Shown: in pieces, positions 45,470 to 59,938 of the stretch
Numbering within the stretch: position 1 is the stretch's first letter
Layout: each line of letters opens with the position of its first letter
Origin: an uncultured Fusobacteriaceae bacterium
Lineage (GTDB): Bacteria; Fusobacteriota; Fusobacteriia; Fusobacteriales; Fusobacteriaceae
Assembly: GCA_947038515.1 (NCBI GenBank)
Contig: CAMQWJ010000006.1
Coordinates: 46,765 to 110,764, forward strand
Length of the DNA stretch: 64,000 nt
Direction of reading: 5' to 3'
Program-made: the position numbers and the translations under genes
Notes under the pieces: model-generated
The model's database searches: none
What the model was told of the DNA's origin: nothing
Seen by the model: the letters and a program-made list of their open reading frames with translations, nothing else

Positions 45470-46306
45470 TTATGGAATAGATTGTATTGGAACTAAAATT
45501 TCAGTTATAAATTTATTTTCATCACTAAAAGTCCAATAATCAACGACATACCTTTCATAACATTTATCCACATATTCATATCCACATTTTTTTAACCAAT
45601 CCTGCATTTTTTTATAAGCTATTTTTATATTATTATATGGTCCTATATAATAATAACTTGCCACCAATATATCACCAAAATCTAGTAACTGCTCAGACTC
45701 GCATTTTTCTAAACATTTTTGCATTATTTTTACATCTGTACATTTTTCTAAACATTTATTTTCAAATGAAGAAAATTCTATTATTACTGGTCCAGCTATC
45801 ATATTTTTCATTTTTTCAATATAGTTATTAAATTCTATATTAACTATTGAATTCATGTATTTATATTCAAACTTTTGTTCCAAAAACATCATCTTTGTCT
45901 TTTTAAACATTTTTATATTGATGTCCATTGGTTTTTCTGCTACAACTGTTTTAGCCTCTTTAATAAGGTCTAACCATTCTTTTACTGCCTTTTTCTTTGT
46001 TTTTAATTCCCCTTCCAAAATCTCTAATTCTCTTATTTTATCATTAAATTTTTCTTCTATATTTCCAGGATGAAAATCAAATTTATTAATCATTTTTTTT
46101 ATATCATCCAACTTAAATCCACTTTGCTTATAGTATTTTATTATTGGTATTTTATGTAATTCTTCTTCTGTATAGCTTCTATATTTATTGGTATTTGGAA
46201 TCCCTGAAGGACAAAGCAAACCTATCTCATCATAATATCTTAGGGTTCTTTTACTTATTTTACAAATTTTTTCTACCTCTCCAATGCGATATTTCTTCTC
46301 ACTCAT
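45470..46306 (-). CDS. MerR-family regulator with C-terminal GyrI-like effector-binding domain (BmrR/Mta-like)
   Basis: N-terminal MerR HTH (YRIGEVEKICKISKRTLRYYDEIGLL). C-terminal small-molecule-binding GyrI-like domain. Confidence 0.7.
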   Translation of the reverse strand: MSEKKYRIGEVEKICKISKRTLRYYDEIGLLCPSGIPNTNKYRSYTEEELHKIPIIKYYKQSGFKLDDIKKMINKFDFHPGNIEEKFNDKIRELEILEGELKTKKKAVKEWLDLIKEAKTVVAEKPMDINIKMFKKTKMMFLEQKFEYKYMNSIVNIEFNNYIEKMKNMIAGPVIIEFSSFENKCLEKCTDVKIMQKCLEKCESEQLLDFGDILVASYYYIGPYNNIKIAYKKMQDWLKKCGYEYVDKCYERYVVDYWTFSDENKFITEILVPIQSIP

Positions 46307-46522: not shown

Positions 46523-46969
46523 TTAATTTTTTTCTAGCCAATTAGCAGGGTATACAACATATATAAATTTACTATATTCAGGAGCACTAAACTTAATTTT
46601 AGAATTTCTAGGAATTAATATCACATCACCTTTTTCTCCTACTATTTTCCTGTCATCAATAATTATTTCAAGACGTCCTTCAATAATATAATCAATTTCA
46701 TCATATACTAATTCCCAATCAAATGTACTTTTTGTTATTTCCATTATTCCAGCACCTATTCTAGGACTTTCTTCTAAAGTGAATAATTTTTTTACATAAA
46801 CTTGATCATTAGAATTTCCTGTCTCCAGTCTTATTTTTTCAATTTCTTCACACTTAATAACTCCAATACCACTTTTATCTATAATTTTTGATACTTTTTT
46901 TGAGGTACTAAATTCTTTTTCAATCGCTTTTTTTATAATTTTATTTATTTCTTCATTAGTAATTTTCAA
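46523..46969 (-). CDS. EutQ-like cupin protein of the BMC locus
   Basis: C-terminal cupin barrel (GDVILIPRNSKIKFSAPE) as in EutQ. Last gene of the locus. Confidence 0.6.
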   Translation of the reverse strand: MKITNEEINKIIKKAIEKEFSTSKKVSKIIDKSGIGVIKCEEIEKIRLETGNSNDQVYVKKLFTLEESPRIGAGIMEITKSTFDWELVYDEIDYIIEGRLEIIIDDRKIVGEKGDVILIPRNSKIKFSAPEYSKFIYVVYPANWLEKN

Positions 46970-47003
46970 TTTTAAACCTCCTAACTAAGACTTATAAATA
47001 TTT

Positions 47004-47270
47004 TTATTTGTTTTTTATTTTTTCGATTATTTCTTTTATTTGTTCAATTCCTAGTGCATTATAATTTTCTTTCAATATTTCTTTTATTATTATTTCACAA
47101 GCTTTAATAGAATTTATATTTATATTTTCTTTTTCATACACTATATCTATTTTTTCTTTTTTTAAATAATCTTCTATTGAAGAAGTTATAATCATATTTT
47201 TCTTTTTATAAAATTTATTTTCTGTTATATAGTCATTAATTTTTTCTAATTTCACTAATTCTCTTTTCAT
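47004..47270 (-). CDS. Hypothetical 88-aa protein, translationally coupled to the BMC-P gene
   Basis: Start 1 nt after BMC-P stop. No recognisable domain. Lys/Glu-rich helical. Confidence 0.35.
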   Translation of the reverse strand: MKRELVKLEKINDYITENKFYKKKNMIITSSIEDYLKKEKIDIVYEKENININSIKACEIIIKEILKENYNALGIEQIKEIIEKIKNK

Positions 47271-47271
47271 T

Positions 47272-47520
47272 TTAATTCTCCTCCTTCTCATCTATAATTC
47301 CGATAGTGATTGCATCAATTGGTAATGATTTTGTTGTTAAACCATTTTGGGCTCCAGTGCCTCTGGTAATTATAACCCTATCACCTATCCCAGCCCCTAT
47401 TGAATCAGACACAACTATTTTTTCACCAGCTTCAAGTTCTACTATTAAAAATGTTATTCCGTACAATGAAGGATCTTTTCTAGTCGCCCATACATTTCCA
47501 ACTATTTTTCCTATTATCAT
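47272..47520 (-). CDS. BMC vertex protein (BMC-P; EutN/PduN/CcmL family)
   Basis: MIIGKIVGNVWATRKD ... GAGIGDRVIITRG is the typical EutN/CcmL fold sequence. Confidence 0.8.
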   Translation of the reverse strand: MIIGKIVGNVWATRKDPSLYGITFLIVELEAGEKIVVSDSIGAGIGDRVIITRGTGAQNGLTTKSLPIDAITIGIIDEKEEN

Positions 47521-47665
47521 TTTTCACCTTCTTATTATTTCAATATTATTATTTTTAATTTCATCCTTAACTAATTCCATTCTAATTGTTTCTTACAAAT
47601 TAATTATAATATTATTTTTTCATCTAATATCATTTCAATAATTTTCTTTTTTTCTTTATTCCTCA

Positions 47666-48394
47666 TTACTCGTAAATTTCTCCATAAGAATCTTTCGATA
47701 TGTAAAATGCATTTGCCTCATCATAATCTATATGCATATTTAAAATAAATTTATTATCTACCCTTACCAAAACATTCTCAAATATTCCAGAACGTTCACT
47801 AACAATTTTTACTTTTATTAAGTCATTATCTTTTACATTCAACCTATTGGCGTCTTTTTCATTCATATGTATGTGATTCCTAGCTATAATCACACCTTTA
47901 TCTATATAAACAAAGTTTTTTCCATTACTCATTAAAATTCCTGGAGTGCCATCTATTAAACCTGAATTTCTTAAAACAGCATTCACACCTAATATTCTAG
48001 AATCTGTTAATGATAATTCAACTTGTGTTTCTTTTCTCATTGGTCCTAATATTACTACATTTTCTATAATTCCTTTACTTCCTATTAATCTTACCCTTTC
48101 TTTATAGGCGTATTGTCCCAATTGAGAAAGTTCTTTTGATATGGTAAAAACATATCCTGTTCCAAATAATATATCAGCCTCTTTTTGAGAAAGATGTATA
48201 TGTCTACCTGAAGCTTCTATAGGAATTTTAATTTTATTATTCTCTTCTATTTTGGACTCTTCTATCAACTTTATTGACTTTTGAGCCATATATTCCCTTG
48301 CCGATGGAGTTATTACTGTTTTTTTATCTACCTTTATCTCTTTTATATTTTCTTTATTATAAAGAAGCTTTAATTTTTCTTCTGTCAACACCAT
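47666..48394 (-). CDS. PduL-type phosphotransacylase
   Basis: GRHIHLS and a second HIH motif, characteristic of the PduL metal sites. 242 aa. Confidence 0.75.
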   Translation of the reverse strand: MVLTEEKLKLLYNKENIKEIKVDKKTVITPSAREYMAQKSIKLIEESKIEENNKIKIPIEASGRHIHLSQKEADILFGTGYVFTISKELSQLGQYAYKERVRLIGSKGIIENVVILGPMRKETQVELSLTDSRILGVNAVLRNSGLIDGTPGILMSNGKNFVYIDKGVIIARNHIHMNEKDANRLNVKDNDLIKVKIVSERSGIFENVLVRVDNKFILNMHIDYDEANAFYISKDSYGEIYE

Positions 48395-48404
48395 AATTTT
48401 CTCC

Positions 48405-49859
48405 CTATTTCTCTAGAATTCCTTCCATTATTTTTCTTACTAACTCTTCTATATTTTTCTCTTTTGTAAAATCATGATCTATCTCTTCATTTTTTCTTAT
48501 ACACTCTATTTCTTTTATTCCCCAAGCTGCTTTTCTTACATTAATTAAATTTAAAGGAGTTATATTGTCTGAAGTTGAACTTCCACCAACTGCACCACAT
48601 CCTAGAGTCAATGCTGGTGCCAAATTTGTTGTTGCCCCTAAACCACCCAAAGCTCCCGGAGTATTTATAAGTAATCTTGACACTGGTTTTTTTAATGCAA
48701 ACTCTTTTATTATATCTCTATTTTCTGAATGTATTACTGTTGTATGTCCAATCCCCTCTATATTCAATATTTCTATAGCCCTTTCACAGGCTTTTTCCCA
48801 ATTTTTTTCTACATAAAATGCTAATATTGGTGCTAATTTTTCTCTTGAATATGGATTTTTTTTAGAAGCATTCTCTTCTTTTGAGATTATTACTCTTGTT
48901 CCTTTAGGAAACTGTAAATTTGCAAGTTCACCCAATTTTTCGACACTTTTTCCTACTATTTGTGGATTCATACTTCCGTTAGCTCTTAAAATAAATTCAC
49001 CTAATTTTTTAGATTCTTCTCTTGTTAAAAAATAGCCACCTTGTTCTTTTAGTTCTCTCACCACTTCTTCTTCACTAATTTCTTCTACGATAATCGACTG
49101 CTCCGATGCACAAATTACTCCATTATCAAAAGTTTTACTATCCAATATTCTTTTAACTGCTAATTTTTTATTAGCACTTCTTTCTATGAAGGCTGGACCA
49201 TTTCCTGGACCTACTCCTATTGCAGGATTACCAGATTTATAAGCAGCTTTGACCATTGCTTCTCCACCTGTAGCCAATATCATTGCTATCCCCTCGTGTT
49301 TCATTAATTCTTCTGTTGCCTCCATAGTTATCAAGGTTGTTACTCCTATTAATCCTTCCGGTGCCCCAGCTTCCATGGACAACTCTTTAAGAAGATTTAC
49401 TGTTTCGATTATACATTTTTTCGCATTAGGATGTGGACTAATTATTATTCCATTTCCGGCTTTTAAAGAAATCAAAACTTTATAAATTGTTGTTGAAGTT
49501 GGATTTGTTGAAGGAATTAAACCTGCAATTATCCCCATTGGGACCCCTATTTCTATTGTTTCATTTTCTTCCTTTAAAACGCCAACTGTTTTCATATTTT
49601 TTATATATTCATATACATTCACTGATGCAAAATTATTTTTTATTATTTTATCTTCATATTTTCCAAATCCTGTCTCTTCTATTGCCATTTTTGCTAATTT
49701 TTCACTATGTTTTCTTATCCCCATTGACATTTTATAAATTACATCATCTATTTTTTTTTGAGAAAATAAAGAATATTTTTTTTGTGCTTCCTTGGATTTT
49801 TCTATTAAATCTCTCACCTGCTGTCTTGATTCTAAATCTCTATCCATTTTTTCCTCCAT
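48405..49859 (-). CDS. CoA-acylating aldehyde dehydrogenase (EutE/PduP-type), catalytically intact copy
   Basis: PSTNPTST, SPHPNAKK and catalytic cysteine in FDNGVICASEQS align with E. coli EutE FDNNIICADEK. C-terminal amphipathic helix IEELVRKIMEGILEK. Confidence 0.8.
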   Translation of the reverse strand: MEEKMDRDLESRQQVRDLIEKSKEAQKKYSLFSQKKIDDVIYKMSMGIRKHSEKLAKMAIEETGFGKYEDKIIKNNFASVNVYEYIKNMKTVGVLKEENETIEIGVPMGIIAGLIPSTNPTSTTIYKVLISLKAGNGIIISPHPNAKKCIIETVNLLKELSMEAGAPEGLIGVTTLITMEATEELMKHEGIAMILATGGEAMVKAAYKSGNPAIGVGPGNGPAFIERSANKKLAVKRILDSKTFDNGVICASEQSIIVEEISEEEVVRELKEQGGYFLTREESKKLGEFILRANGSMNPQIVGKSVEKLGELANLQFPKGTRVIISKEENASKKNPYSREKLAPILAFYVEKNWEKACERAIEILNIEGIGHTTVIHSENRDIIKEFALKKPVSRLLINTPGALGGLGATTNLAPALTLGCGAVGGSSTSDNITPLNLINVRKAAWGIKEIECIRKNEEIDHDFTKEKNIEELVRKIMEGILEK

Positions 49860-50034
49860 TTTTTATGTTCTCAACTTAAGTTATATAAGGGTAATTATAA
49901 TTTTCAACTCTTTAATTACCTTTCCTGCAATTAAAACTACTGCTCTCTCTATTAAATCAACTCCATAACCCTAGACTAATTTCAAAACTTCAATATCAGT
50001 ATTTTTAAGTACACGACCCAACCTCTTATTTTAT

Positions 50035-50061
50035 GAGAAACCCCTTAAATTGGGGTTTCTC
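50035..50061 (-). other. Intra-operon stem-loop gagaaacccc-ttaaatt-ggggtttctc between the BMC-H gene and the active aldehyde dehydrogenase gene
   Basis: Perfect 10-bp stem with no T-run, inside a 213-nt intergenic gap of an otherwise tightly packed operon. Confidence 0.5.
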
Positions 50062-50072
50062 ACTTACTTTAA

Positions 50073-50354
50073 TTATTTTATTTCTGGTAAAATTGTTTCC
50101 ACATCTGAATGTGGTCTTGGAATTACATGAACAGAAATTAATTGTCCTATTCTATCTGCTGCTGCTGCTCCTGCATCTGTTGCCGCTTTAACCGCACCTA
50201 CATCTCCACGAACTAGTACAGTTACCAACCCTCCGCCTACCATTTCTTTTCCTATCAAAGTAACATTTGCTGCTTTAACCATTGCATCTGCTGCTTCTAT
50301 TGCTGCTACCAATCCTTTTGTTTCTATCATTCCTAATGCATTTAATGTTGCCAT
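50073..50354 (-). CDS. BMC-H shell protein (PduA/EutM-like)
   Basis: [26 protein letters not shown] canonical Pfam00936 sequence. 93 aa. Confidence 0.85.
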
Positions 50355-50359
50355 TTAAA

Positions 50360-50857
50360 TCAACTCCCTTTTTTAGTTTTTTTTATTTTTTTGGTTTTTA
50401 CTGCCATTTTAGGTTGAGAACTATCCTCTTTAGACTCCAACACTTCTAAAGTCTCTACATCATTTTTTTTCATAATTAAATCTCTTATTACTATATTTTC
50501 TTCATTAGTTTTTGTTATATCATCTATTTTTTTCTTTTCTATTTTTTCATGAGCTTTATCTAACAATTCAAATATTTCTAAATCAGGCCTCGCCATTATA
50601 TTACTACTCATATACACACCTAATTTTTTTGTTGCTTCAACTGCTGCTTCTATTGCCACCTCTATGGAACCTATATCTCCTATGAATTCCACCGTTACAA
50701 TTCCACCTTTTATCAAATGTTTATTATATATCTTTACATTTGAAGTTTTGCAGGCCACATCACAGGCTTCTATTATCCCTAACATACCTTTTGTTTCTAT
50801 CAAACCCAAAGCGTTCATAAGTTCCCCCATTGCCATTCTTCGGCTTTTTTCTAACAT
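50360..50857 (-). CDS. BMC-H shell protein with Lys-rich C-terminal extension (PduK/EutK-like)
   Basis: BMC-H domain (ALGLIETKGMLGIIEACDVA) plus a tail of about 70 aa. Start may be internal (MGELMNALG). Confidence 0.7.
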   Translation of the reverse strand: MLEKSRRMAMGELMNALGLIETKGMLGIIEACDVACKTSNVKIYNKHLIKGGIVTVEFIGDIGSIEVAIEAAVEATKKLGVYMSSNIMARPDLEIFELLDKAHEKIEKKKIDDITKTNEENIVIRDLIMKKNDVETLEVLESKEDSSQPKMAVKTKKIKKTKKGS

Positions 50858-50862
50858 TTTTT

Positions 50863-52398
50863 TTAATTATTTTTTTTTAAAGTTTCGACTATTTCATCAA
50901 TAAACTTTAGAAGTTTCACCTCTTCTATCTTACTATCATTAAATTGTTTTTCTTGTTTTAAAGTTTCTATTTCTTTAGTTTGATAACAATTATATTTTTT
51001 TCCTTCTAATACTTCAGGAATTTTTATTTTATCATCATTACTTTCTATCAAGCCACAATCAGATATTCCACATCTAATTTCTACTCTTTTTGAAAATTTG
51101 AACGGTTCTACATCTTCTAATAATATTTTTTTTCTTGCTTTTTTATACATGTGGTTATAAAACTCTTCATTTTTAGTATCATTTTTTCTTCCTATCTCTA
51201 CTCTTTCTATATTTAAAAAAATATTTATTTCTAATTCCACAGAAATTTTTTCTATTACTTGTAAATCTTCAGTATAAACATTTATTCCTTGGATTTTTTC
51301 CTCATTGGCAAGCTCTCTACAAATATCACACCCTTCTTTAAGGTCTTTAACAATATAAAAGTCAATTACTACTCCATTTTCAAATGTTAATGGTCTTTCA
51401 TTTTTTATACTATTTTGTTTCCTTACTAGAACTTTCGTATCAAATGGTATTTTTATTTTTGCTTTTTCAGAAATAAATTCTACTGACTCTCCAACATACT
51501 CCAACTTTATTTTATTTTCTTGATATAAAGTCTTATAAAGTTGTTCATTTTCTTCTTCGTTCATAAAATAAGCACCTTGATTTTCCAACTCTCCAATAAT
51601 TTCTTTTTCATTAAAAGCTTCACAAATTATAAAATTTTCTGATACAGGTATCATACCATTATTAAATCTTTTATTTCCTATAAAATTTTTTATAGCCTTC
51701 TCTATTACTCCTGTTTTTTCTATATAAACTAAATTACTTTTGTTTACAAGACTCAATAATAAGACATTCGAGTCTTGTAAATTTTTAATTTTTTTTGATA
51801 TATCAGTGCCTATAACAAGAGCAATTTCCTTTTGTTTCACCAGCTCCAAAGCTCCCACTTCAGAATAGGTTTCTATGCTACTTATAATATTATTCGGAGC
51901 TCCGGCTTCAATGGCTGCCTCATTTAACATTTTTACAACCATAGCTACAGATTTTTCTACTTTTGAATAAGGTAAAAACATTATTGCATTCTTTGATTTA
52001 ATCGCATTGATAACTCTAAAAATTAATATTGAAGTCACATTTATTACTGGTAATAACCCCAAAATCAAGCCTAATGGTTTTCCAATAACAAGTTTTTTTT
52101 CTTTTACATTAGTTTCTAGTATCCCTATTGTTTTTATTAATTTTATCTCTTCATATAAAATTGATGAGGCTATATTATTCAGATATTTTTTATCATCAGC
52201 ATTTCCTTTTCCTATTGCTTCAATTTCTATAGCTCCTAACCAATCTTCATTTTTTTTTATAGCTTTAACTATATTCAATAATATCATATCGATTTGGTCA
52301 TTAGTATATTTTTCAATTTTTTTAGCTGCAATTTTTCCTTTTCTAGCTAAATTTCTTGAACATTGTCTTAGCTCTAAATCTTTATCAACATTTTGCAA
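50863..52398 (-). CDS. Aldehyde dehydrogenase-fold paralogue B, predicted inactive (catalytic Cys replaced by Pro; degenerate cofactor motifs); 511 aa with C-terminal extension
   Basis: Aligns with EutE throughout. Has FNNGMIPVSENF where the active copy has FDNGVICASEQS. STNP/HP motifs degenerate. C-terminal helix EEVKLLKFIDEIVETLKK. Confidence 0.65.
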   Translation of the reverse strand: MQNVDKDLELRQCSRNLARKGKIAAKKIEKYTNDQIDMILLNIVKAIKKNEDWLGAIEIEAIGKGNADDKKYLNNIASSILYEEIKLIKTIGILETNVKEKKLVIGKPLGLILGLLPVINVTSILIFRVINAIKSKNAIMFLPYSKVEKSVAMVVKMLNEAAIEAGAPNNIISSIETYSEVGALELVKQKEIALVIGTDISKKIKNLQDSNVLLLSLVNKSNLVYIEKTGVIEKAIKNFIGNKRFNNGMIPVSENFIICEAFNEKEIIGELENQGAYFMNEEENEQLYKTLYQENKIKLEYVGESVEFISEKAKIKIPFDTKVLVRKQNSIKNERPLTFENGVVIDFYIVKDLKEGCDICRELANEEKIQGINVYTEDLQVIEKISVELEINIFLNIERVEIGRKNDTKNEEFYNHMYKKARKKILLEDVEPFKFSKRVEIRCGISDCGLIESNDDKIKIPEVLEGKKYNCYQTKEIETLKQEKQFNDSKIEEVKLLKFIDEIVETLKKNN

Positions 52399-52424
52399 CT
52401 ATTCCTCCTCACTGAACAAAAAGC

Positions 52425-53390
52425 TTAATGTTTAATAATTTTTACTTGAAAATCATAATTTTTAATCCAAGTTTCAATACAATCCAATTCTTCATTACTT
52501 ATACTAGGATCTTCTTCCATTAAATACTCTAGCCCTAACTGTTTATACTTCTGTATTCCCATTTTATGATATGGCAATAAGTCTATACCTTTAAAATTCT
52601 TATAATTTTTATATGGTTTTAAAAATTCCATAATTTTTTCAATATCTTCTTTTTTATCATTAATTCCTTTTAAAATCGGCATTCTAATCTGAACATTATT
52701 ATTGTTTTCTATCAATTTAGAAATATTTTTTAAAATGCTTTCATTTCTAACTCCTGTCCATTCAAGATGTTTTTCAGAATTAATATTTTTAATATCTATC
52801 AAAAACAAATCTGTAAATTCTGCAACTTTTAAAATTGTTTCCTCTGATGCAAATCCAGAAGTCTCGATTGCAGTATTTATTCCTGAATATTTACAAGCCA
52901 TTAATAAATTTAGTGCTGCCTCTGGTTGCATTAAAACCTCTCCACCACCAAGAGTCACTCCACCACCAGAAGTCTCATAAAAAGTTCTGTCTGATTCTAT
53001 TATTTCTAAAAGTTCAGATATTGTTTTACCTTCCCCCACAACACTTAATGCTGTTTTATAACACACTTCTTCACACTTTCCACAACCTATACACTCAATA
53101 TTTCTATTAATTATATGTGTCCTTGTTTCTTTATCTATTTCATGAATTCCTTTTGGACAAATTTTTACACATTCTCCACAATCATTACATAGATTTTCTC
53201 TAAACATAACCTTAAATTTTTTCTCTAAACCTTCAGGATTTGCGCACCACTTACATCGAAGTGGGCAACCTTGAAAAAAAATTATAGTTCGTAACCCTGG
53301 ACCATCGTACATATTATATTTTTGAATATTAAAAATCATTGCTTTTCTTTCAATAATCATATTTTTTTTACACATATATAAATTCTCCAA
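52425..53390 (-). CDS. cutD: Glycyl-radical enzyme activating enzyme (CutD-like)
   Basis: CPLRCKWCANP radical SAM motif plus two ferredoxin-like Cys clusters (CNDCGECVKICP, CIGCGKCEEVC). True start probably internal (MIFNIQKY). Confidence 0.8.
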   Translation of the reverse strand: MENLYMCKKNMIIERKAMIFNIQKYNMYDGPGLRTIIFFQGCPLRCKWCANPEGLEKKFKVMFRENLCNDCGECVKICPKGIHEIDKETRTHIINRNIECIGCGKCEEVCYKTALSVVGEGKTISELLEIIESDRTFYETSGGGVTLGGGEVLMQPEAALNLLMACKYSGINTAIETSGFASEETILKVAEFTDLFLIDIKNINSEKHLEWTGVRNESILKNISKLIENNNNVQIRMPILKGINDKKEDIEKIMEFLKPYKNYKNFKGIDLLPYHKMGIQKYKQLGLEYLMEEDPSISNEELDCIETWIKNYDFQVKIIKH

Positions 53391-53427
53391 TTTGTTTTAA
53401 TTATTATTAGTATTTCTACTTTTTAAT

Positions 53428-55962
53428 CTATAATTGCTTTAAAACTGTTCTACTTATAATTTCATCCTGAACATCCTTACATAATTCTACAAAATATGCA
53501 CTATATCCTGCAACACGAACTATTAAATCTCTATAATTTTCTGGATTCTTTTGTGCTTCCAACAAAGTTTCGTTATCTAAATAGTTAAATTGTATTTCTC
53601 CTAATTGTAAAGTACAAGCACTACGCAATAATGAAATTATACCATTTTCACCTTCTGGTGTTTCTAAAAGTCCAGCAATTAATTTAAAGTTATGTACCAT
53701 ACCTATATTCATGCTATCACATGCCATTTTAGAAACTGATTTCATAATCGCAGTTGGACCATTTACATCTGCTCCTTGAGTTGGACTAATTCCATCAGAT
53801 AATGGAGTCCATGCTTTTCTTCCATTAGGTGTTGCTCCTAATAATTGACCAAAAGGTGTATTATTAGATATTGATAGAGTTCCATGACTTAGAACAGAAT
53901 AAAGAGTTTTATATTTACGATGCTCCATTTCTGTATAGTTAATTAATTCGGCTGCTATAAAGTCTACATAATCATCATCATTCCCATATTTAGGTACATC
54001 TAGACAGTCTTTTCTTATTTTTTCATAACCTACAAAGTCTTTATTTAAAACCTCTTTCATTTCTCTTAAAGTATATTTTTTTTCTTCAAAAACTAGTTTT
54101 TTTATAGCTGCCATTGAGTCAACATGTGTTGCAAGACCACTCCAAACTACACCTGGTCCAAAATTATACATTGCCCCTCCAGCTTCAACACCTCTTCCTT
54201 TTTCCATACATCCTTCAAACATTAAAGACATCAATGGTTTTGGTGCTACGTCTTTATGAACTCTTTGAGTTATTACTGTTGCAATGCTTGACCATTTCGT
54301 TATATAGTTTATCTGTTCTTTTACTGCATTTTCAAATTCCTCATAAGTTTTAAAGTTATCTATATCGCCACAATCAGGAGTTACTTTTTTCCCATACCAT
54401 GATGGAACTCCATTATTTAAAACTAATTCAATACAGATTGGCCACTGAGTGTACGCTGTTGAAGTCCACTGATATAATCTTCCTGATTTCTGAGGTTCTA
54501 CGCATCCCATCAAACAATAATCTCTTGCATCTTCTATTGAAACTCCTTTTGCCAACATCATTTTTATATGAACATCATCAAAATGACAAGCAGGGAATCC
54601 TACTCCAGCTTTTATAACATCTACTATTTTTTTCAAATATTTTTGAGGTGATGATTTATGAATACGACAAGAGAGTGTTGGTTGATAAATTTTTACATGT
54701 CTTACTGCATCCATTAATAAATATGTCAAATCATTTGTAGCATCTCGCCCTGCTCTTGTTATTCCTCCAACACACATATTAATAAATGGTTGGTATCCTG
54801 CAAAAAATTTTGATCCACCCTCACTTGTTATCCACATCATTTCTGACATTTTTATAAGCATGCAGCCAGCTAATTCAAAGGCTTCAAATTCTGTCATTTT
54901 TTTATTCTCAATATCATTTTTATAAAATGGGTACATATATTGATCCACACGTCCAATAGACATTCCAGTTTGATTTTCTTCTACTAATAATAAAGATTCA
55001 ATAGTCCAAACCGATTGAATAGCTTCCCAAAAATTATTTGGTTTATTAGCAGGAACTCTTGAATTAACTTCTGATATTTTTAGCAATTCTGCTTTTCTTT
55101 TAGTATTTGTCTCTTTTTGAGCTAATTCATAAGCATAATCTGACATACGCTTTGCATATATCATAACTCCCTCAGCTGTATCTATTACTGATTTATAAAA
55201 ATATATTTTATCAATATCTTCTGGATTTTCATATTTAAGAGTTAATAATTTTTCTTCTGCTTCCTTTTTTATATCTAACATTCCTTTTTTCATTAGAATT
55301 ACATCATAACCTGGATTAGAATCTCCACCACCATTTACAGCATGGTATGAGCAATCTGATACAAATGATTCTCCCGAAAGTTCCCACACTCCCGCTTCTC
55401 TAAATTGGTCTTCACAAGCCTCATCTACAGATTTTCCTTTCCAAAATGGAAATAATTCTTCTCTCATAACTTTTTTATCTTCTTCTGAAATATAGAAAGG
55501 ATCTTGCGGTCTTGTAGCAATAGTTTCTATTTCTGTTTCCATCCATCTCCATGCTATATCAGGAGCAAACGAACCAGCTCTAGGGGCCCCGTTAGGTGCT
55601 CCAACAATCAACTCATGATCTTGTATTACTAATGGAGCAGTTTCACAACAATACTTAAATGATTTTCCTCTTAATATTGATTTTGGCAATCCTGGGTTTT
55701 CTTTAGCTATTTTTGTTATAGCTTTTGCTCTATGAATTGTTATACTTGGAGTATGCTTCAAATAACTTTCTTTTAACTTTTTCAAACGACTTGTAATTCC
55801 TTCTGGAATACAATCGCTACTAGCTTCACAACCACTCATAACTTCTTTTTCAGATATTTCTTTTGAAACTTCTTCAAACACCCTAATTATAGCATTTCTT
55901 TCCTCTTCAGACATATCTTTTGTACTATTAACAAATTTATCAATAATTTCTTTAATTTCCAT
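53428..55962 (-). CDS. cutC: Glycyl radical enzyme, choline trimethylamine-lyase (CutC)-like
   Basis: 844 aa. Glycine-radical motif RVAGYSAYF (G819). CutC-diagnostic residues all present at aligned positions: Y206, D214 (VNGGGDS), F385, F391, C485, E487 (MGCVEP), T498, Y502. Confidence 0.75.
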
Positions 55963-56001
55963 TTTATCCTCCTAGTATTTAAATAATATAATCATTAACA
56001 T

Positions 56002-57501
56002 CTAATTTTTTTCAGATATTTCTTTTAATATTTTTTTTATCAACGCTTCCAAATCAATTGATTCTTCCCCAAATTTATTTTTTACATCACATTCCAAATT
56101 ATTTTCTGAAGAATATTTTTTTAAGAATTCGTCTACATCTCTTACTTCGTATCCAACTTTTCTTATATATATCAAATTCATTGGAGATATATTGTCCGAT
56201 GTAATTCCATTTCCAACTAAACCGCTACCTAAAGTCATGGCTGGAAAAAGATTTGTTGTCCCACCTATACTACCAAAAGCTCCTGGTGTATTTACCAAAA
56301 TTCTTCCAACTGGTTTTTTCATTATAAATTGATTAATAACATCTTCATCTTTCGAATGAATAATAAGTGTATGTCCTTGCTTACCACTTAATAATAGCTC
56401 TATACACTTTTCACAAGCATTTTGCCAATCAGGTTCTACATAAAATGATATTACAGGACACAATTTTTCTTTAGAATATAGACTCTCTTTTGAAATATAT
56501 TTCGGAGTAACAATTAATAATTTTATATCTTTATCAATTTTAAAATTAGCTTTTTGGGATAACCACTGTGGTGATTTTCCCATACATTCTTTTTCAATTT
56601 CTCCATGTTTATCAAATAAAATCTTCATCAAATTTTCTGTTTCTGATTCTTTCATAAAATAGGCACCATTTATTTCTAACTCACATTTAACTTCTTTTTC
56701 AATACACCCATCTACAACTATAGAATGTTCTGCTCCTGGCATAACTCCATAATCAAAACTTTTACTAATAACAACATCTCTCACTGCCTTCTGTATATTT
56801 GCTGTCTTTTCAATAAAAACAGGGGCATTTCCGATCGTTCCATAAATTACCTGTTTTCCTGATTTTTGCATTTCCTCCAATAATTCCTTAACACCTGTAT
56901 TTAATATTAAACTCGTATCTCTATGATGAATTAATTCCTTAGAGCCATTAAAAGAAAGATTTTCTAAATATGATAATGCTCCCTCTGGTAATCCTGCTTC
57001 TTCTCCTGCTTTTATCAAAATATCCAAAGTTTTTTTCATTATATTTTTTGCTTTAAGATGTCTTGAAAAAACAATTGTATTTCCTGATTTTATTGCTAGT
57101 ATTGCTTTAGATACAATAGTTGATACAGGGCTAATCGTTGAACAAAAAGCAACTATTACTCCTAGAGGGACTCCTACACTTAAAACTTTATTAATTTTAT
57201 CATTTTCTATTAATCCAACACACTTCATATCTTTAAGTTTATTTCTTAAAGAATCATTAATATATTTATCTTTAATTAATTTGTCTTTCCAATTACCTTG
57301 TCTTGTTTCCTCATATGACTCTCTTGATAAACTCTCTAAATTTTTATCTATTTCATCTAACATCTTTTCAACTATTTCATCTATTTTTTCTTGTGATAGT
57401 ACAACTGTTTTCTTCTGAGCTTCCCTTGCATTTTCAACAAGAATTCTAGCCTCTTGTATAGAAAGTAAATCATTATCTATTATATTCATATCGCTCCTCA
57501 A
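56002..57501 (-). CDS. Aldehyde dehydrogenase-fold paralogue A, predicted inactive (catalytic Cys replaced by Pro)
   Basis: FDYGVMPGAEHS at the catalytic-Cys position. STNP replaced by STISP and HP by HL. C-terminal helix IDLEALIKKILKEI. Confidence 0.65.
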   Translation of the reverse strand: MRSDMNIIDNDLLSIQEARILVENAREAQKKTVVLSQEKIDEIVEKMLDEIDKNLESLSRESYEETRQGNWKDKLIKDKYINDSLRNKLKDMKCVGLIENDKINKVLSVGVPLGVIVAFCSTISPVSTIVSKAILAIKSGNTIVFSRHLKAKNIMKKTLDILIKAGEEAGLPEGALSYLENLSFNGSKELIHHRDTSLILNTGVKELLEEMQKSGKQVIYGTIGNAPVFIEKTANIQKAVRDVVISKSFDYGVMPGAEHSIVVDGCIEKEVKCELEINGAYFMKESETENLMKILFDKHGEIEKECMGKSPQWLSQKANFKIDKDIKLLIVTPKYISKESLYSKEKLCPVISFYVEPDWQNACEKCIELLLSGKQGHTLIIHSKDEDVINQFIMKKPVGRILVNTPGAFGSIGGTTNLFPAMTLGSGLVGNGITSDNISPMNLIYIRKVGYEVRDVDEFLKKYSSENNLECDVKNKFGEESIDLEALIKKILKEISEKN

Positions 57502-57504
57502 TAT

Positions 57505-57804
57505 CTATATGATTTCTAAAGCATATTTTTTTATAATTTTCCACAAATCATCATGAGGTCTTGCTATTACGATATCACTATATAAATTTCCACCTTCCAT
57601 TGATTTTACTGCCTTGACTCCTGCTTCTACAGCAGCACTACAAGCTCCAACATCACCTGTTACTATCACACTTATATAACCCGACGCTACATTTGTATAT
57701 CCTACTATTTCAACATTTGCTGCTTTACACATGGCATCTGCTGCTTCCAGTGCAAAAACTAAACCGAAAGTCTCTATTAAACCAATTGCTTTATAATTCA
57801 TCAC
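57505..57804 (-). CDS. BMC-H shell protein
   Basis: AIGLIETFGLVFALEAADAMCKAANV. 99 aa. Confidence 0.85.
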   Translation of the reverse strand: MMNYKAIGLIETFGLVFALEAADAMCKAANVEIVGYTNVASGYISVIVTGDVGACSAAVEAGVKAVKSMEGGNLYSDIVIARPHDDLWKIIKKYALEII

Positions 57805-57824
57805 TTTATCTTCAACTCCTTATT

Positions 57825-58118
57825 TTAATCAATATCATGAACAGATACAATTTTCCCCACTTGCTTTATCGGTCGTGGCATTACATTTTTAGCTGTTAAA
57901 GTTCCTACTTCCCTAGCTGCTTCTGCTCCTGCTTCTACAGCTGAAGAAACTGCTCCTACATCCCCTTTTACTATTATAGTAACAAGAGTAGAACCTATAT
58001 TTTCATAAGAAATTAATTCTACATCTGCTGCTTTTAACATCTTATCTGCTGCATAAAGTGCTGGAGCTAACCCCAATGTTTCTATCAATCCTAAAGCTTC
58101 TTCTTCACAATACTTCAT
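57825..58118 (-). CDS. BMC-H shell protein
   Basis: ALGLIETLGLAPALYAADKMLKAADV. Start at MKYCEEE with GGGGGG RBS. Confidence 0.8.
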   Translation of the reverse strand: MKYCEEEALGLIETLGLAPALYAADKMLKAADVELISYENIGSTLVTIIVKGDVGAVSSAVEAGAEAAREVGTLTAKNVMPRPIKQVGKIVSVHDID

Positions 58119-58157
58119 TTTAAGTCCCCCCATATATTTTTATTTAATTATTATTTT

Positions 58158-58424
58158 TTAATCTTTTATAAAACTATTTATTGTCTTTTTACTCTCTTCA
58201 TTCGCTCTATAAAATATTAATAATTCTCCATTTTTATCTAATTCAAAACTTTTTTCCTCAATTAACCCATTAGCTTCTGCAGTCATTAAAGCATGACTTA
58301 TAGAATTTTTATTAAATGCTCTATGTGTAGAATACTCCTTCTTTAAATCATTCATCACTTCTTCTACTGTACCTTCTTCTACTCTTGTAAAATATTTTAA
58401 AATTGCATAATTAAGGGGTTTCAT
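58158..58424 (-). CDS. Hypothetical 88-aa protein (possible winged-helix-like), coupled to the permease gene
   Basis: Start 1 nt after permease stop. No confident domain. Confidence 0.35.
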   Translation of the reverse strand: MKPLNYAILKYFTRVEEGTVEEVMNDLKKEYSTHRAFNKNSISHALMTAEANGLIEEKSFELDKNGELLIFYRANEESKKTINSFIKD

Positions 58425-58425
58425 T

Positions 58426-59532
58426 TTACAGTACCTCCTGTTTTTTTTTTCTAAATAAGTCAAGTGGATTCATAGCAATTATCAATATTCCTATCATCAT
58501 AATTACAGCTCCAATCCATGCTACTAACGGTAAATTCCAACCTTCTATACCATTCATAACTCCTAATATTAAATAACAGAACAAAGGACCAAAAAATGAG
58601 TACGTTCCATTACATGCTGTCCCTAACCCTGCTCCACACATACTATTTCCTGCATACCATGTCATAAATGTTAAAAATGTTGCTAATCCGCTCAAGACAA
58701 ACCAAAACATTGCTGATGGACTTGTAAAAGCTAATACTGCCAAGTCAATAGGAATATTTATATCTCCAGCCATAATTCCTAACAATGGTAAAACTATAAA
58801 TAAATTACCTATTCCAGATGATAGTTGACGAATACAAATACCAATCTGTGGATCAACCATTGCAGAAGCATATCCTGCAACACATCCTTCAAATCCCCAT
58901 CCTATTGCCGCTATTACAGCTATTCCAAATCCTATAAAGACTACTTTAGAAAATTCCCCTTCCATACCTGTACTTCCTATTAAAAAACTTGCTAAAACGC
59001 AAATAACTATTCCTAACCCCATACGTTTACTGATTTCTTGCTTATAAAATATTTTTCCTAAAATTGCTGCTATCGCAGGACAAAGTGCCGAAATTGGCAC
59101 CACTATAGAACCTGCCATTTTTAGAGCAACTACATAAGCTGTTCCAGCTATAGGTCCTCCTACAAAGGCTGCCAACATAATTGTTCTTCCCGGTTTTGTA
59201 TTTAAACACCTTAGAAAATCTTTAAATTTTCCTTGAATAACTGAGTTCCCTATAGCCCAAAATGCACTACAAGTATCATTAATCGCATTTCCTAAAGAAG
59301 CTAATAGATACACTATTACAAATGCTGAAAGTCCACTTTTATTTACTCCATACCAATCTTCCCAAACTCCTCTCTTCATTCCCATCATTAAAAGTGCTGT
59401 ATAAAGTCCATATGAAGCTCCTGAAAATAGACCTATCATTATTCCTTTTTTGAAAAAATTCTGTTTCATCTCTCTCATTAAACTAATGGCGTCTTTTCCT
59501 TTGGTTGTAGTTTCTGATGCGATTCTTGACAT
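58426..59532 (-). CDS. Polytopic permease, first gene of the BMC locus (possibly EutH-family facilitator; substrate unknown, choline or ethanolamine candidate)
   Basis: About 10 TM helices, 368 aa. Size and position resemble EutH, but sequence-level assignment is not certain. Confidence 0.4.
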   Translation of the reverse strand: MSRIASETTTKGKDAISLMREMKQNFFKKGIMIGLFSGASYGLYTALLMMGMKRGVWEDWYGVNKSGLSAFVIVYLLASLGNAINDTCSAFWAIGNSVIQGKFKDFLRCLNTKPGRTIMLAAFVGGPIAGTAYVVALKMAGSIVVPISALCPAIAAILGKIFYKQEISKRMGLGIVICVLASFLIGSTGMEGEFSKVVFIGFGIAVIAAIGWGFEGCVAGYASAMVDPQIGICIRQLSSGIGNLFIVLPLLGIMAGDINIPIDLAVLAFTSPSAMFWFVLSGLATFLTFMTWYAGNSMCGAGLGTACNGTYSFFGPLFCYLILGVMNGIEGWNLPLVAWIGAVIMMIGILIIAMNPLDLFRKKKQEVL

Positions 59533-59638
59533 TTTTCCCCCTTTTATATTCTTATTAAACTAATTTATTATAAACCTTTCCCTATACGTTAGAGTCAAGG
59601 TTTTTATTATTTAGAATAATGAAATAATATGAATAATA

Positions 59639-59837: not shown

Positions 59838-59929
59838 TGGCGGTGAAAGAGAGATTTGAACTCTCGATACCGGATTAACGGTATACTCCCTTAGCAGGGG
59901 AGCGCATTCGGCCGCTCTGCCATTTCACC
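59838..59929 (-). tRNA. tRNA-Ser (anticodon GCU), type II, CCA encoded
   Basis: Manual fold: acceptor GGTGAAA/TTTCACC, anticodon loop CTGCTAA, long variable arm. 92 nt. Confidence 0.8.
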
Positions 59930-59938
59930 ACATCTTCC

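What the first reader, a model, noticed from the sequence alone, without database searches (positions are those of the whole stretch)
46523..59532. Choline-type glycyl-radical microcompartment locus (CutC/CutD) in a Fusobacteriota-like genome, with an atypical minimal composition
The 844-aa glycyl radical enzyme carries every residue reported as diagnostic for choline trimethylamine-lyase, at aligned positions offset by 2-4 residues from the Desulfovibrio numbering:
- Y206 and D214 in AVNGGGDS (Y208, D216)
- F385 and F391 (F389, F395)
- C485 and E487 in MGCVEP (C489, E491)
- T498 and Y502 (T502, Y506)
- G819 in RVAGY (G821)

Around it sit CutD, four BMC-H genes (one with a C-terminal tail), one BMC-P, PduL, a EutQ cupin, a permease and the ALDH set.

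The locus lacks an alcohol dehydrogenase (normally needed for internal NAD recycling), any BMC-T shell protein, EutJ and any regulator. Trimethylamine production from choline by such an organism would matter for host TMA/TMAO biology.
Basis: partly seen in the sequence, partly recalled or inferred. Interest (0 to 1): 0.7.

Follow-up and report, generated by a model that had tools for sequence, protein, structure and literature searches.

The report
Choline microcompartment locus, cut–eut chimera
This is a genuine choline-to-trimethylamine (CutC/CutD) microcompartment gene cluster in an uncultured Fusobacteriaceae genome; the enzyme, its occurrence in Fusobacteria and its regulator were already known, and the odd gene content arises because the back half of the cluster was rebuilt from an ethanolamine-utilisation operon.

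Summary
The 844-aa glycyl radical enzyme is CutC. It scores 1594 bits against TIGR04394 (cut-off 1050), is about 80% identical to crystallised Desulfovibrio CutC, and has every active-site residue at a uniform offset of -2. CutD lies next to it. The host is Fusobacteriaceae.

The "atypical composition" is real. Of 78 related cut loci, 77 carry EutJ, 73 a GrpU-like shell gene, 72 PduV and 66 an Fe-ADH. This lineage has none of them.

"No regulator" is wrong:
- The MerR/GyrI activator typical of type I cut clusters sits just outside the stated coordinates (45470-46306).
- Its 20-nt-spacer promoter precedes the permease.
- A conserved PadR-fold gene follows the permease.

The locus is a chimera:
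- Permease to CutD is Clostridium-like type I cut.
- ALDH2 is a decaying CutF relic.
- BMC-H/BMC-H/ALDH3/PduL/EutN/orf/EutQ is colinear with the distal half of a Fusobacteriaceae eut operon (75-82% DNA identity), with EutT, EutH, two other genes and the ADH deleted. The first ~45 EutT residues are fused in frame to PduL.
- An intermediate form exists in a second lineage (L089).

Most genes are under purifying selection, so the locus is probably functional.

CutC in Fusobacteria, the Cys-less CutB, the MerR regulator and ADH-less clusters were all published in 2014-2015. The verdict is a new variant of a known kind, of modest interest.

The parts
59567..59598 (-). MerR-type promoter/operator TTGACTCTAACGTATAGGGAAAGGTTTATAAT. 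There are 20 nt between TTGACn and TATAAT; the right half-site TAGGGAAAGG is intact and the left half is degenerate. It starts 66 nt upstream of the permease ATG.
   Evidence: A TTGAC-N20-TATAAT match was found upstream of the permease in 58 of 79 related loci scanned, most with the dyad CTTTCCCTATAGGGAAAG. The Fusobacteriaceae loci L009, L052, L064 and L089 have it too.
58426..59532 (-). LicB-like DMT/EamA permease (368 aa), the putative choline importer.
   Evidence: Pfam EamA. The only PDB sequence hit is the choline transporter LicB, 7B0K, E=2e-8. It is the first gene of nearly all related cut loci at 51-78% identity.
58158..58424 (-). Conserved 88-aa PadR-fold winged-helix protein, a candidate second regulator. 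The ORF list shows a 101-aa TTG-extended version ending at 58463.
   Evidence: 645 homologues, all ~88 aa, from Clostridium, Fusobacterium, Cetobacterium and Desulfobaculum. The AlphaFold model has pLDDT 96. The top Foldseek PDB hits are all PadR-family regulators, TM ~0.7. It is present in every related locus scored except the truncated L061.
57825..58133 (-). BMC-H shell protein, cut-type.
   Evidence: PF00936; 74-83% identical to cut loci against <=57% to eut shell genes.
57505..57804 (-). BMC-H shell protein, cut-type.
   Evidence: PF00936; 63-83% identical to cut loci.
56002..57501 (-). CutB-type pseudo-aldehyde dehydrogenase. The catalytic Cys is replaced by Pro (GVMPGAEHS); other motifs and a C-terminal amphipathic tail are kept.
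   Evidence: Alignment A1: all CutB orthologues lack the Cys. Purifying selection: strain pN/pS 0.16 and dN/dS 0.28 against L089. Known feature of GRM1 (PMC4453576, PMC4207490).
53428..55962 (-). CutC, choline trimethylamine-lyase (844 aa). Key residues: Y206, D214, F387, F393, C487, E489, T500, Y504, G819.
   Evidence: TIGR04394 1593.7 bits against a cut-off of 1050. 1510 bits to 5FAU. Residues checked. The identical protein occurs on 22 contigs. dN/dS 0.10.
52425..53390 (-). CutD, the radical-SAM activating enzyme of CutC.
   Evidence: TIGR04395 528 bits against a cut-off of 360; Radical_SAM plus ferredoxin-type cluster domains.
50863..52398 (-). ALDH2 (511 aa), a degenerate relic of the cut-type active ALDH (CutF). 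It has no catalytic Cys (GMIPVSENF), eroded cofactor motifs and an eroded C-terminal domain; the ORF is still open.
   Evidence: A1: its C-terminal 'KIKIPEVLEGKKYNC' matches the CutF of L009. Identity to CutF is 25-38%. Only its own 99% cluster and then a 34% hit were found in 5.8 billion proteins. Strain polymorphism is 2 synonymous / 7 non-synonymous, Fisher p=0.011 against the rest of the locus.
50360..50857 (-). BMC-H with a C-terminal tail, eut-derived (EutK-like position).
   Evidence: PF00936; 64% identical to the 148-aa BMC gene of eut locus L087 against <=48% to cut loci.
50073..50354 (-). BMC-H, EutM-type, eut-derived.
   Evidence: PF00936; 98% identical to L087 BMC-H94.
48405..49859 (-). 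ALDH3, a EutE-type acetylating acetaldehyde dehydrogenase. It is the only ALDH in the locus with the catalytic Cys (ICASEQS).
   Evidence: TIGR02518 753 bits against a cut-off of 620. 84% identical to the EutE of eut locus L087; named relatives are all Fusobacteriaceae. dN/dS 0.11-0.13.
47666..48394 (-). EutT'(1-~45)::PduL in-frame fusion, a phosphotransacetylase.
   Evidence: PF06130 at residues 58-232. Residues 1-50 are 64% identical to the N-terminus of EutT in L087, and residues 41-242 are 75% identical to L087 PduL.
47272..47520 (-). EutN (BMC-P vertex protein), eut-derived.
   Evidence: PF03319; 82% identical to L087 EutN against 42-52% to cut loci.
47004..47291 (-). Small conserved eut-operon ORF of unknown function (88-95 aa).
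   Evidence: 53% identical to the ORF between EutN and EutH in L087. No Pfam family. dN/dS 0.74.
46523..46969 (-). EutQ cupin, eut-derived.
   Evidence: PF06249 E=9e-53; 74% identical to L087 EutQ against 23-41% to the longer EutQ-like genes of cut loci.
45470..46306 (-). MerR + GyrI-like transcriptional regulator, cut-type. Here it lies downstream of the operon rather than upstream.
   Evidence: Pfam MerR_1/GyrI-like. 41-53% identical to the MerR gene found in ~60 of the related cut loci. [quoted passage not shown]

Best explanation
The locus is a functional, choline-inducible microcompartment operon for anaerobic choline cleavage (type I cut / GRM1 lineage) in an uncultured Fusobacteriaceae bacterium. 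Its architecture is a cut-eut chimera.

**Proposed mechanism**
1. Inferred: the MerR/GyrI-like activator acts on the 20-nt-spacer promoter in front of the permease.
2. Inferred from homology: the LicB-like permease imports choline.
3. Shown by sequence: CutD installs the glycyl radical on G819 of CutC.
4. Strong homology inference: CutC cleaves choline into trimethylamine and acetaldehyde.
5. The EutE-type ALDH3 oxidises acetaldehyde to acetyl-CoA plus NADH.
6. The EutT'::PduL fusion makes acetyl-phosphate and recycles CoA.
7. From memory of published work, not tested here: EutQ may act as an acetate kinase.
8. The shell is built from two cut-type BMC-H proteins, two eut-type BMC-H proteins and EutN.
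9. CutB, Cys-less but conserved, probably has a non-catalytic scaffolding role. ALDH2 is a decaying CutF relic.
10. No NADH-recycling ADH is encoded. NAD+ is presumably regenerated by an unlinked ADH or by cytosolic metabolism after cofactor exchange across the shell. Candidates are the EutG of the lineage's full eut operon and the YqhD-like gene at 13537-14709.

**Proposed history**
A Clostridium-like type I cut cluster entered Fusobacteriaceae. In the window/L089 sub-lineage, everything downstream of CutD was replaced by a copy of the distal half of a resident-type eut operon. The ethanolamine- and B12-specific genes (EutT, EutH), two further genes and the ADH were then deleted.
For: **Identity of CutC and CutD:**

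**Origin of the front half**
- The front half is 62-84% identical to Clostridium and Fusobacteriaceae cut loci.
- In a neighbour-joining tree, CutC falls in a Fusobacteriaceae clade nested among Clostridium sequences.

**Origin of the back half**
- It is colinear with eut loci L087, L090 and L091 at 75-82% DNA identity.
- Protein identities are 98% (EutM-type BMC-H), 84% (EutE), 75% (PduL), 82% (EutN) and 74% (EutQ).
- The EutT N-terminus is fused to PduL.
- A 55-bp trace of the deleted 171-aa BMC gene remains.
- The named relatives of ALDH3 are all Fusobacteriaceae.
- L089 is an independent second chimeric locus that still carries full EutT and the 171-aa BMC gene.

**Regulator and promoter:**

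**Selection**
- dN/dS is 0.04-0.39 for every gene compared except the small orf, both against L089 and against the eut operon.
- Among strains, CutC shows 0 non-synonymous and 4 synonymous changes.

**Not an assembly artefact**
- 20 kb is 100% identical in independent ENA and JGI assemblies.
- The same order occurs in six places shown, and the identical CutC is on 22 contigs.

**Shell sufficiency:** a shell of four BMC-H plus one BMC-P without BMC-T is sufficient in GRM2 (PMC6971018).
Against: - There are no expression, enzymatic or imaging data.
- No ADH is in the locus. Linkage of the eut operon's EutG to this genome rests only on co-occurrence in two datasets and on similar composition, which did not discriminate.
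- Accessory genes present in >90% of relatives are gone: EutJ, the 215-aa unknown, PduV and the GrpU-like gene.
- ALDH2 evolves almost neutrally.
- One sub-lineage carries ALDH3 with a premature stop and two in-frame deletions. This is L001; the 370-aa products occur on >=6 contigs. That allele would leave no intact ALDH in the locus.
- The MerR gene is displaced from its usual place, and the left half of its operator is degenerate.
Confidence: 0.8

Rival explanations
1. The locus is a decaying remnant. After losing its ADH, EutJ, PduV, GrpU and CutF functions, it is being eroded and no longer supports choline fermentation, or only leaky TMA formation without a working microcompartment.
For: - Genes found in 66-77 of 78 relatives are missing.
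- ALDH2 has pN/pS 0.84, Fisher p=0.011.
- An ALDH3 allele with a stop codon and two deletions occurs on >=6 contigs.
- The small eut orf has dN/dS 0.74.
- The left half of the operator is degenerate.
Against: - In the window every gene is intact.
- CutC, CutD, permease, MerR, CutB, ALDH3, PduL, EutN and EutQ all show dN/dS 0.04-0.28 over a divergence of dS ~0.8-1.0.
- The deletions are tidy and selective: the B12 enzyme EutT was removed in frame and the ethanolamine permease EutH was lost. This looks like streamlining rather than random decay.
- Purifying selection acts in both chimeric lineages.
Confidence: 0.12
2. The GRE acts on a substrate other than choline, such as another quaternary amine or an ethanolamine-like compound. 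The eut-derived back half would reflect that different chemistry.
For: Only the general point that GRE specificity is hard to predict. The back half comes from an ethanolamine operon.
Against: - About 80% identity to biochemically and structurally characterised CutC.
- All choline-binding and catalytic residues are conserved.
- The equivalog model score is 50% above its cut-off, while all other GRE equivalog models fall far below theirs.
- The back half contains only generic acetaldehyde-processing and shell genes. EutBC, EutA and EutH are absent.
Confidence: 0.04
3. The cut-eut junction is a metagenome mis-assembly that joins a cut locus and a eut locus through similar shell or ALDH genes.
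For: The window matches metagenome-derived contigs. Paralogous eut genes at 75-82% DNA identity exist in the same samples.
Against: - The same gene order is recovered in six places shown, from different samples and assemblers, and two of them are 100% identical over 20 kb.
- The back half differs from the eut operon by ~20% at DNA level throughout, so it is a distinct sequence.
- A second, diverged chimeric locus exists (L089).
Confidence: 0.02

Closest known systems
Type I cut gene cluster / GRM1 choline-utilisation microcompartment (Desulfovibrio desulfuricans/alaskensis, Clostridium spp.; Craciun & Balskus 2012; Martinez-del Campo 2015, PMC4453576; Axen 2014, PMC4207490)
   Same: - Short-form CutC with an N-terminal extension, and CutD.
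- The Cys-less CutB immediately upstream of CutC.
- Two BMC-H genes, a LicB-like permease and the 88-aa gene at the 5' end.
- A MerR/GyrI regulator and its 20-nt-spacer promoter.
- Gene order from permease to CutD identical to the Clostridium and Fusobacteriaceae relatives.
   Different: - No CutO ADH, EutJ, PduV, GrpU-like shell protein, 215-aa unknown or long EutQ.
- CutF is reduced to a Cys-less relic.
- The active ALDH, PduL, BMC-P, EutQ and two BMC-H genes are of eut rather than cut ancestry.
- MerR lies downstream rather than upstream.
- The 5' leader is short (34 nt) against 98-447 nt in relatives.
EUT2-type ethanolamine-utilisation operon of Fusobacteriaceae/Firmicutes (loci L087, L090, L091; Cetobacterium ceti L088)
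   Same: The back half has the same order and 53-98% protein identity: BMC(EutK-like)-EutM-[171-aa BMC gene]-EutE-[EutT]-PduL-[192-aa unknown]-EutN-orf-[EutH]-EutQ-[EutG].
   Different: - There is no signature enzyme EutBC, no EutA, no EutL/EutS, no EutVW two-component system and no PduV.
- The bracketed genes are deleted, and EutT survives only as a 45-residue N-terminal tag on PduL.
Type II cut cluster / GRM2 (Klebsiella, Proteus, E. coli; PMC6971018)
   Same: - The same chemistry.
- A small locus with four BMC-H plus one BMC-P.
- No BMC-T and no FeS accessory proteins.
   Different: - GRM2 CutC carries a ~350-aa N-terminal duplication.
- GRM2 has a TetR regulator, keeps CutO (ADH) and has no CutB.
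- The resemblance is convergent, not by descent.
BMC fusion loci (PDU/EUT fusions in Listeria, Sebaldella etc., and one PDU/GRM fusion; Axen 2014, PMC4207490)
   Same: Genes of two microcompartment types are combined in one locus.
   Different: - Described fusions juxtapose two largely complete loci, each with its signature enzyme.
- Here one signature module (cut) is served by the core and shell module of another type, whose own signature enzyme is gone.
- A GRM1/EUT2 combination was not mentioned in the passages retrieved by my term searches of those papers.

Membership tests
Choline trimethylamine-lyase CutC (TIGR04394) | Whole-protein score above the curated equivalog cut-off, and better than to any other GRE family. 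| tested here: met
   1593.7 bits against a cut-off of 1050. Every other GRE equivalog model scores below its own cut-off. PDB: CutC structures at 1210-1510 bits, next GRE at 638 bits.
Choline trimethylamine-lyase CutC (TIGR04394) | Glycyl radical site (RVxGY) and the Cys/Glu catalytic loop (GCVEP). | tested here: met
   G819 in RVAGY; C487 and E489 in MGCVEP.
Choline trimethylamine-lyase CutC (TIGR04394) | Choline-binding residues equivalent to D. alaskensis Y208, D216, F389, F395, T502 and Y506. | tested here: met
   Y206, D214, F387, F393, T500 and Y504, from the alignment to 5FAU and a position check.
Choline trimethylamine-lyase CutC (TIGR04394) | Adjacent cognate activating enzyme CutD. 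| tested here: met
   TIGR04395 528 bits against a cut-off of 360; the gene starts 37 bp downstream of CutC.
Choline trimethylamine-lyase CutC (TIGR04394) | Conversion of choline to TMA and acetaldehyde. | not testable with these tools
   Needs an enzyme or whole-cell assay.
Type I cut cluster / GRM1 | Short CutC (~850 aa) with a short N-terminal extension rather than the ~350-aa duplication of GRM2. | tested here: met
   844 aa; aligns to the 849-aa D. alaskensis protein from residue 20.
Type I cut cluster / GRM1 | A second, catalytically dead ALDH (CutB; Cys to Ser/Pro). | tested here: met
   ALDH1 has Pro at the Cys position; its orthologues have Ser or Ala (PMC4207490, PMC4453576).
Type I cut cluster / GRM1 | MerR-family regulator associated with the cluster. 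| tested here: met
   The gene at 45470-46306 is 41-53% identical to the MerR of related loci. The conserved MerR-type promoter lies at 59567-59598.
Type I cut cluster / GRM1 | Cut-lineage active ALDH (CutF), PTAC (CutH) and ADH (CutO). | tested here: not met
   CutF is a Cys-less relic. The PTAC and the active ALDH are of eut lineage. There is no ADH.
Type I cut cluster / GRM1 | About 20 genes including EutJ (CutJ), PduV-like GTPase (CutS), the CutI-like unknown and a GrpU-type FeS shell protein. | tested here: not met
   None is found in the window lineage, against 72-77 of 78 relatives.
EUT2 ethanolamine-utilisation locus | Signature enzyme EutBC with EutA reactivase. | tested here: not met
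   Absent from the locus. Present in the separate eut loci L087, L090 and L091.
GRM2 / type II cut cluster | CutC with the ~350-aa N-terminal duplication; TetR regulator. | tested here: not met
   CutC is 844 aa; the regulators are MerR and PadR-like.

The most novel reading that the evidence does not exclude
The locus is a natural 'signature-module swap'. A glycyl-radical choline lyase module (permease, PadR-like protein, two BMC-H, CutB, CutC, CutD) is serviced by an ethanolamine-type core and shell (EutK/M-like BMC-H, EutE, PduL, EutN, EutQ). It works as a streamlined microcompartment with no dedicated ADH, no FeS shell protein, no EutJ or PduV and no BMC-T. If so, Eut shells and cores can accept CutC cargo, plausibly through CutB and the encapsulation-peptide-like tails. 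Internal NAD+ recycling would then be dispensable in a fermenter that can use NADH elsewhere. The EutT N-terminal 45 residues retained on PduL may serve as a targeting tag.
Probability: 0.45. Interest if true: 0.5.

Novelty: new variant of a known kind. Interest (0 to 1): 0.38.

Why it matters
- **TMA biology.** It adds an uncultured Fusobacteriaceae lineage, found in several metagenomes, to the organisms predicted to make TMA from choline. IMG annotates this CutC as 'formate C-acetyltransferase', so name-based annotation would miss it.
- **Microcompartment evolution and engineering.** It gives a datable, fossil-rich example of modular exchange between two metabolosome types: a CutF relic, a EutT::PduL fusion, a 55-bp trace of the deleted 171-aa BMC gene, and an intermediate form in L089. 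It also suggests which accessory genes are dispensable.
- **Limits.** None of this overturns current understanding. The enzyme, the regulator, the pseudo-ALDH and reduced clusters are all in the literature.

Tried and rejected
1. **Island integrated at tRNA-Ser.** I looked for a repeat of the tRNA 3' end near the MerR/rpsL boundary. Only AT-rich chance matches of <=13 nt turned up, so there is no evidence for att sites.
2. **Apparent EutN deletion in strain contig L005.** It is a run of N, a scaffold gap, not a deletion. The claim is dropped.
3. **Tetranucleotide composition to link the eut contig to the window genome.** Correlations are 0.97-0.99 for all low-GC loci, Clostridium included, so the measure is uninformative.
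4. **Known RNA elements in the long 5' leaders of related loci.** Rfam gathering thresholds gave nothing there. A dyad seen in some leaders matched a strict pattern in only 6 of 58.
5. **Sequence-profile search of the 88-aa family against PDB.** It gave only chance hits at E=0.13. The PadR assignment rests on the predicted fold and a weak Pfam hit (E=0.16).
6. **Habitat of the source samples.** Searching the literature for the sample accessions returned nothing.
7. **One chimerisation event or two.** The back halves of the window and L089 and the eut operon L087 are roughly equidistant: 80-84% for the ALDH, 67-75% for PduL. This is unresolved.
8. **Source species in the GTDB representatives.** No genome-collection locus is closer than 84% CutC identity, so the source species is apparently not among them.

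Full report
**1. What is in the sequence**

Positions 46523-59532 carry one uninterrupted array of minus-strand genes. Pfam and NCBIfam assign them in transcription order:
- an EamA/DMT permease (368 aa);
- a small ORF of 88 aa, listed as 101 aa from an upstream TTG;
- two BMC-H genes;
- an ALDH paralogue (499 aa);
- a PFL-like/Gly_radical enzyme (844 aa);
- a radical-SAM activase;
- a second ALDH paralogue (511 aa);
- a BMC-H with a tail (165 aa) and a BMC-H (93 aa);
- a third ALDH (484 aa);
- PduL (242 aa), EutN (82 aa), a small ORF (88-95 aa) and EutQ (148 aa).

**2. The glycyl radical enzyme is CutC**

- It scores 1593.7 bits on the NCBIfam equivalog model TIGR04394 (cut-off 1050). All other GRE equivalog models fall below their cut-offs. 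The activase scores 528 on TIGR04395, cut-off 360.
- Against PDB sequences, the top eleven hits are choline TMA-lyases at 1210-1510 bits. The best non-CutC GRE scores 638 bits.
- The alignment to D. alaskensis CutC (5FAU) is gap-free through the catalytic regions.
- The diagnostic residues are all present at a constant offset of -2: Y206, D214, F387, F393, C487, E489, T500, Y504, G819.
The residues themselves are real.

**3. Host**

- The window is ~30% G+C.
- It encodes KdsA/KdsD, an EarP-EF-P pair, a type V autotransporter and a succinate-to-propionate operon with a Na+-pumping methylmalonyl-CoA decarboxylase.
- Its EF-Tu falls in a 90% cluster with Cetobacterium and Fusobacterium proteins. 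Its S7 falls in a cluster of 'Fusobacteriaceae bacterium' MAG proteins.
- The named relatives of ALDH3 are all Fusobacteriaceae.
- 'Fusobacteriota-like' is supported. The species itself is not among the GTDB representatives: the best CutC match there is 84%.
- The 20 kb around the locus is 100% identical to an ENA contig and a JGI contig. The identical CutC occurs on 22 contigs.

**4. Comparison with relatives**

A scan of species-representative genomes returned 80 cut loci, mostly Clostridium, with five from Fusobacteriota.

The usual gene order is Fe-ADH, MerR, then permease, 88-aa gene, BMC-H, BMC-H, CutB, CutC, CutD, GrpU-like BMC, PduV, a 215-240-aa unknown, EutJ, a small BMC, EutN, a long EutQ, BMC-H with tail, CutF, PduL and BMC-H.

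Counts among the 78 loci scored:

| Gene | Loci with it |
|---|---|
| EutJ | 77 |
| 215-aa unknown | 76 |
| GrpU-like BMC | 73 |
| PduV | 72 |
| Fe-ADH within 10 kb | 66 |

The window lineage (L001-L006) has none of these. The composition is therefore atypical.

Absence of BMC-T is not atypical:
- The closest relatives lack it too.
- Only about a quarter of GRM1 loci have PduT/PduS (PMC6325248).
- GRM2 builds shells from four BMC-H plus one BMC-P (PMC6971018).

**5. Regulators are present**

MerR and its promoter:
- The gene immediately downstream of EutQ (45470-46306) is a MerR + GyrI-like protein. It is 41-53% identical to the MerR gene that accompanies about 60 of the related loci.
- Starting 66 nt upstream of the permease ATG lies TTGACTCTAACGTATAGGGAAAGGTTTATAAT (59567-59598). 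Its 20-nt gap between TTGACn and TATAAT is the over-long spacing typical of MerR-activated promoters (that spacing rule is from my own knowledge).
- A match to this pattern was found upstream of the permease in 58 of 79 related loci, most with the dyad CTTTCCCTATAGGGAAAG. The Fusobacteriaceae loci share the right half-site.

The 88-aa gene:
- It belongs to a family of 645 proteins of the same size in cut-bearing organisms.
- It models at pLDDT 96.
- Its structural matches in the PDB are all PadR-family regulators, TM ~0.7.

'Lacks any regulator' is therefore refuted twice.

**6. The locus is a cut-eut chimera**

Front half. From the permease to CutD, the proteins are 62-84% identical to cut loci.

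Back half:
- Its proteins are only 23-52% identical to the corresponding cut proteins, apart from the highly conserved EutM-type BMC-H.
- The closest homologue of ALDH3 (84%) lies in a canonical Fusobacteriaceae eut operon: EutS-PduV-EutV-EutW-EutA-EutB-EutC-EutL-BMC148-BMC-H94-BMC171-EutE-EutT-PduL-unk192-EutN-orf91-EutH-EutQ-FeADH.
- The window's back half is colinear with the distal part of that operon at 75-82% DNA identity.

| Window gene | Identity to L087 eut counterpart |
|---|---|
| BMC-H with tail | 64% |
| BMC-H (EutM-type) | 98% |
| ALDH3 (EutE) | 84% |
| PduL | 75% |
| EutN | 82% |
| small ORF | 53% |
| EutQ | 74% |

Deleted genes:
- The 171-aa BMC gene, of which a 55-bp trace remains.
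- EutT.
- The 192-aa unknown.
- EutH.
- The ADH.

The EutT deletion is in frame. Residues 1-50 of the window's 'PduL' are the EutT N-terminus (64% identity) and the rest is PduL.

A second, diverged locus has the same design in a less reduced state. L089 has CutC at 87.5% identity, the closest found. Its order is CutD, a 55-aa ORF, a cut-type BMC-H, then BMC139-BMC-H93-BMC171-EutE-EutT(full)-PduL.

In a neighbour-joining tree the Fusobacteriaceae CutCs form one clade, sister to a Clostridium subgroup. Window and L089 are sisters within it. Whether the eut half was recruited once or twice cannot be resolved.

**7. The three ALDHs**

- **ALDH1** is the CutB orthologue. Like all CutB orthologues aligned here, it lacks the catalytic Cys, which is Pro in this protein. 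This feature is known (PMC4207490, PMC4453576). It is under purifying selection, consistent with a non-catalytic role.
- **ALDH2** keeps a CutF-like C-terminal motif. It has lost the Cys and several cofactor motifs, and it has no relative above 34% outside its own lineage. Among strains it shows 2 synonymous against 7 non-synonymous differences; the rest of the locus shows 71 against 35 (Fisher p=0.011). I read it as a CutF relic made redundant by the recruited EutE.
- **ALDH3** has the Cys and passes the EutE equivalog cut-off.

**8. Functional state**

- Over the divergence from L089 and from the eut operon (dS about 0.5-1.1), dN/dS is 0.04-0.39 for all genes compared. The exception is the small eut ORF at 0.74.
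- CutC has no amino-acid polymorphism among strains.
- This argues that the chimeric operon has been maintained by selection.
- Against this, one strain group (L001) carries ALDH3 with a stop after codon 36 and two in-frame deletions. The resulting 370-aa product is recorded on at least six contigs.

**9. The missing ADH**

- No Fe-ADH lies in or next to the locus.
- The window's only Fe-ADH is a YqhD-like gene 32 kb away on the other strand.
- The full eut operon with its terminal Fe-ADH occurs in the same JGI dataset (L091) and the same ENA sample (L087) as window-type contigs. Genomic linkage is not proven.
- Martinez-del Campo et al. already noted that ~10% of cut clusters lack ALDH, ADH and/or shell genes, with homologues elsewhere in the genome.

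**10. Known versus new**

Already published:
- CutC in Fusobacteria.
- The type I/II classification.
- The MerR regulator.
- The dead CutB.
- Reduced clusters.
- Horizontal transfer of cut clusters.

Fusion loci have been described for PDU/EUT, with one PDU/GRM case.

What I did not find in the passages retrieved by my term searches of these papers is a GRM1 signature module combined with a EUT2 core and shell module lacking its own signature enzyme, together with the molecular fossils seen here. I rate this a new variant of a known kind, of moderate interest to microcompartment specialists and low surprise for TMA biology.

Noticed in passing
window 24098-34260 (- strand): A complete succinate-to-propionate module. 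It holds an Asp-Al_Ex-type transporter, a CoA-transferase, methylmalonyl-CoA mutase large and B12-binding subunits, MeaB, an epimerase, and a four-subunit Na+-translocating methylmalonyl-CoA decarboxylase (carboxyltransferase, gamma, biotin carrier, beta). A LysR regulator lies at 34389-35294. This points to Propionigenium-like physiology.
   Followed up: partly
window 8031-9756 (+ strand): An EarP (EF-P arginine rhamnosyltransferase, TIGR03837) gene is directly followed by efp. This suggests the rhamnosylation route of EF-P modification.
   Followed up: no
window 58158-58424 (-) and every related locus scored except the truncated L061: An 88-aa PadR-fold gene always follows the permease in type I cut loci. 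Most sources call it 'hypothetical'. It is a candidate second regulator of choline utilisation, and I did not find it discussed in the passages of the cut literature I retrieved.
   Followed up: yes
L001 16116-17344 (= window ~49860-48405): A strain variant has ALDH3 disrupted by a stop after codon 36, a ~62-codon in-frame deletion and a ~9-codon in-frame deletion. The 370-aa product is on >=6 contigs, including an NCBI MAG.
   Followed up: partly
window 59838-60022 (-); L009 2618-2775; L007 3557-3629: tRNA genes lie next to the cut locus here (two tRNA-Ser immediately upstream of the promoter) and near cut loci in two relatives. No att-like repeat was found.
   Followed up: partly
relatives L007-L080, region between the MerR-type promoter and the permease ATG: The 5' leader is 98-447 nt in relatives but only 34 nt in the window and ~45 nt in L089. 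No Rfam family matches the long leaders, and some carry an AT-rich dyad.
   Followed up: partly
L038 (Clostridium tetani) 2123-5012 and 20805-20900: CRISPR-DR3 repeat arrays flank the cut locus on both sides.
   Followed up: no
L077 (Leptotrichiaceae MAG) 1633-17169: A larger cut locus has three ALDHs and a distal BMC-H/ALDH/PduL-like segment. That segment's ALDH and PduL are 60-62% identical to the window's eut-derived genes. This may be another cut locus joined to a second microcompartment module; the contig ends inside it.
   Followed up: no
window 53428-55962 (annotation in public sources): The exact CutC sequence is named 'formate C-acetyltransferase' in a public source, so it would be missed by name-based surveys of TMA producers.
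   Followed up: no
window 60073-60273 (-): A 66-aa DUF1858 gene lies between KdsD and the two tRNA-Ser genes.
   Followed up: no
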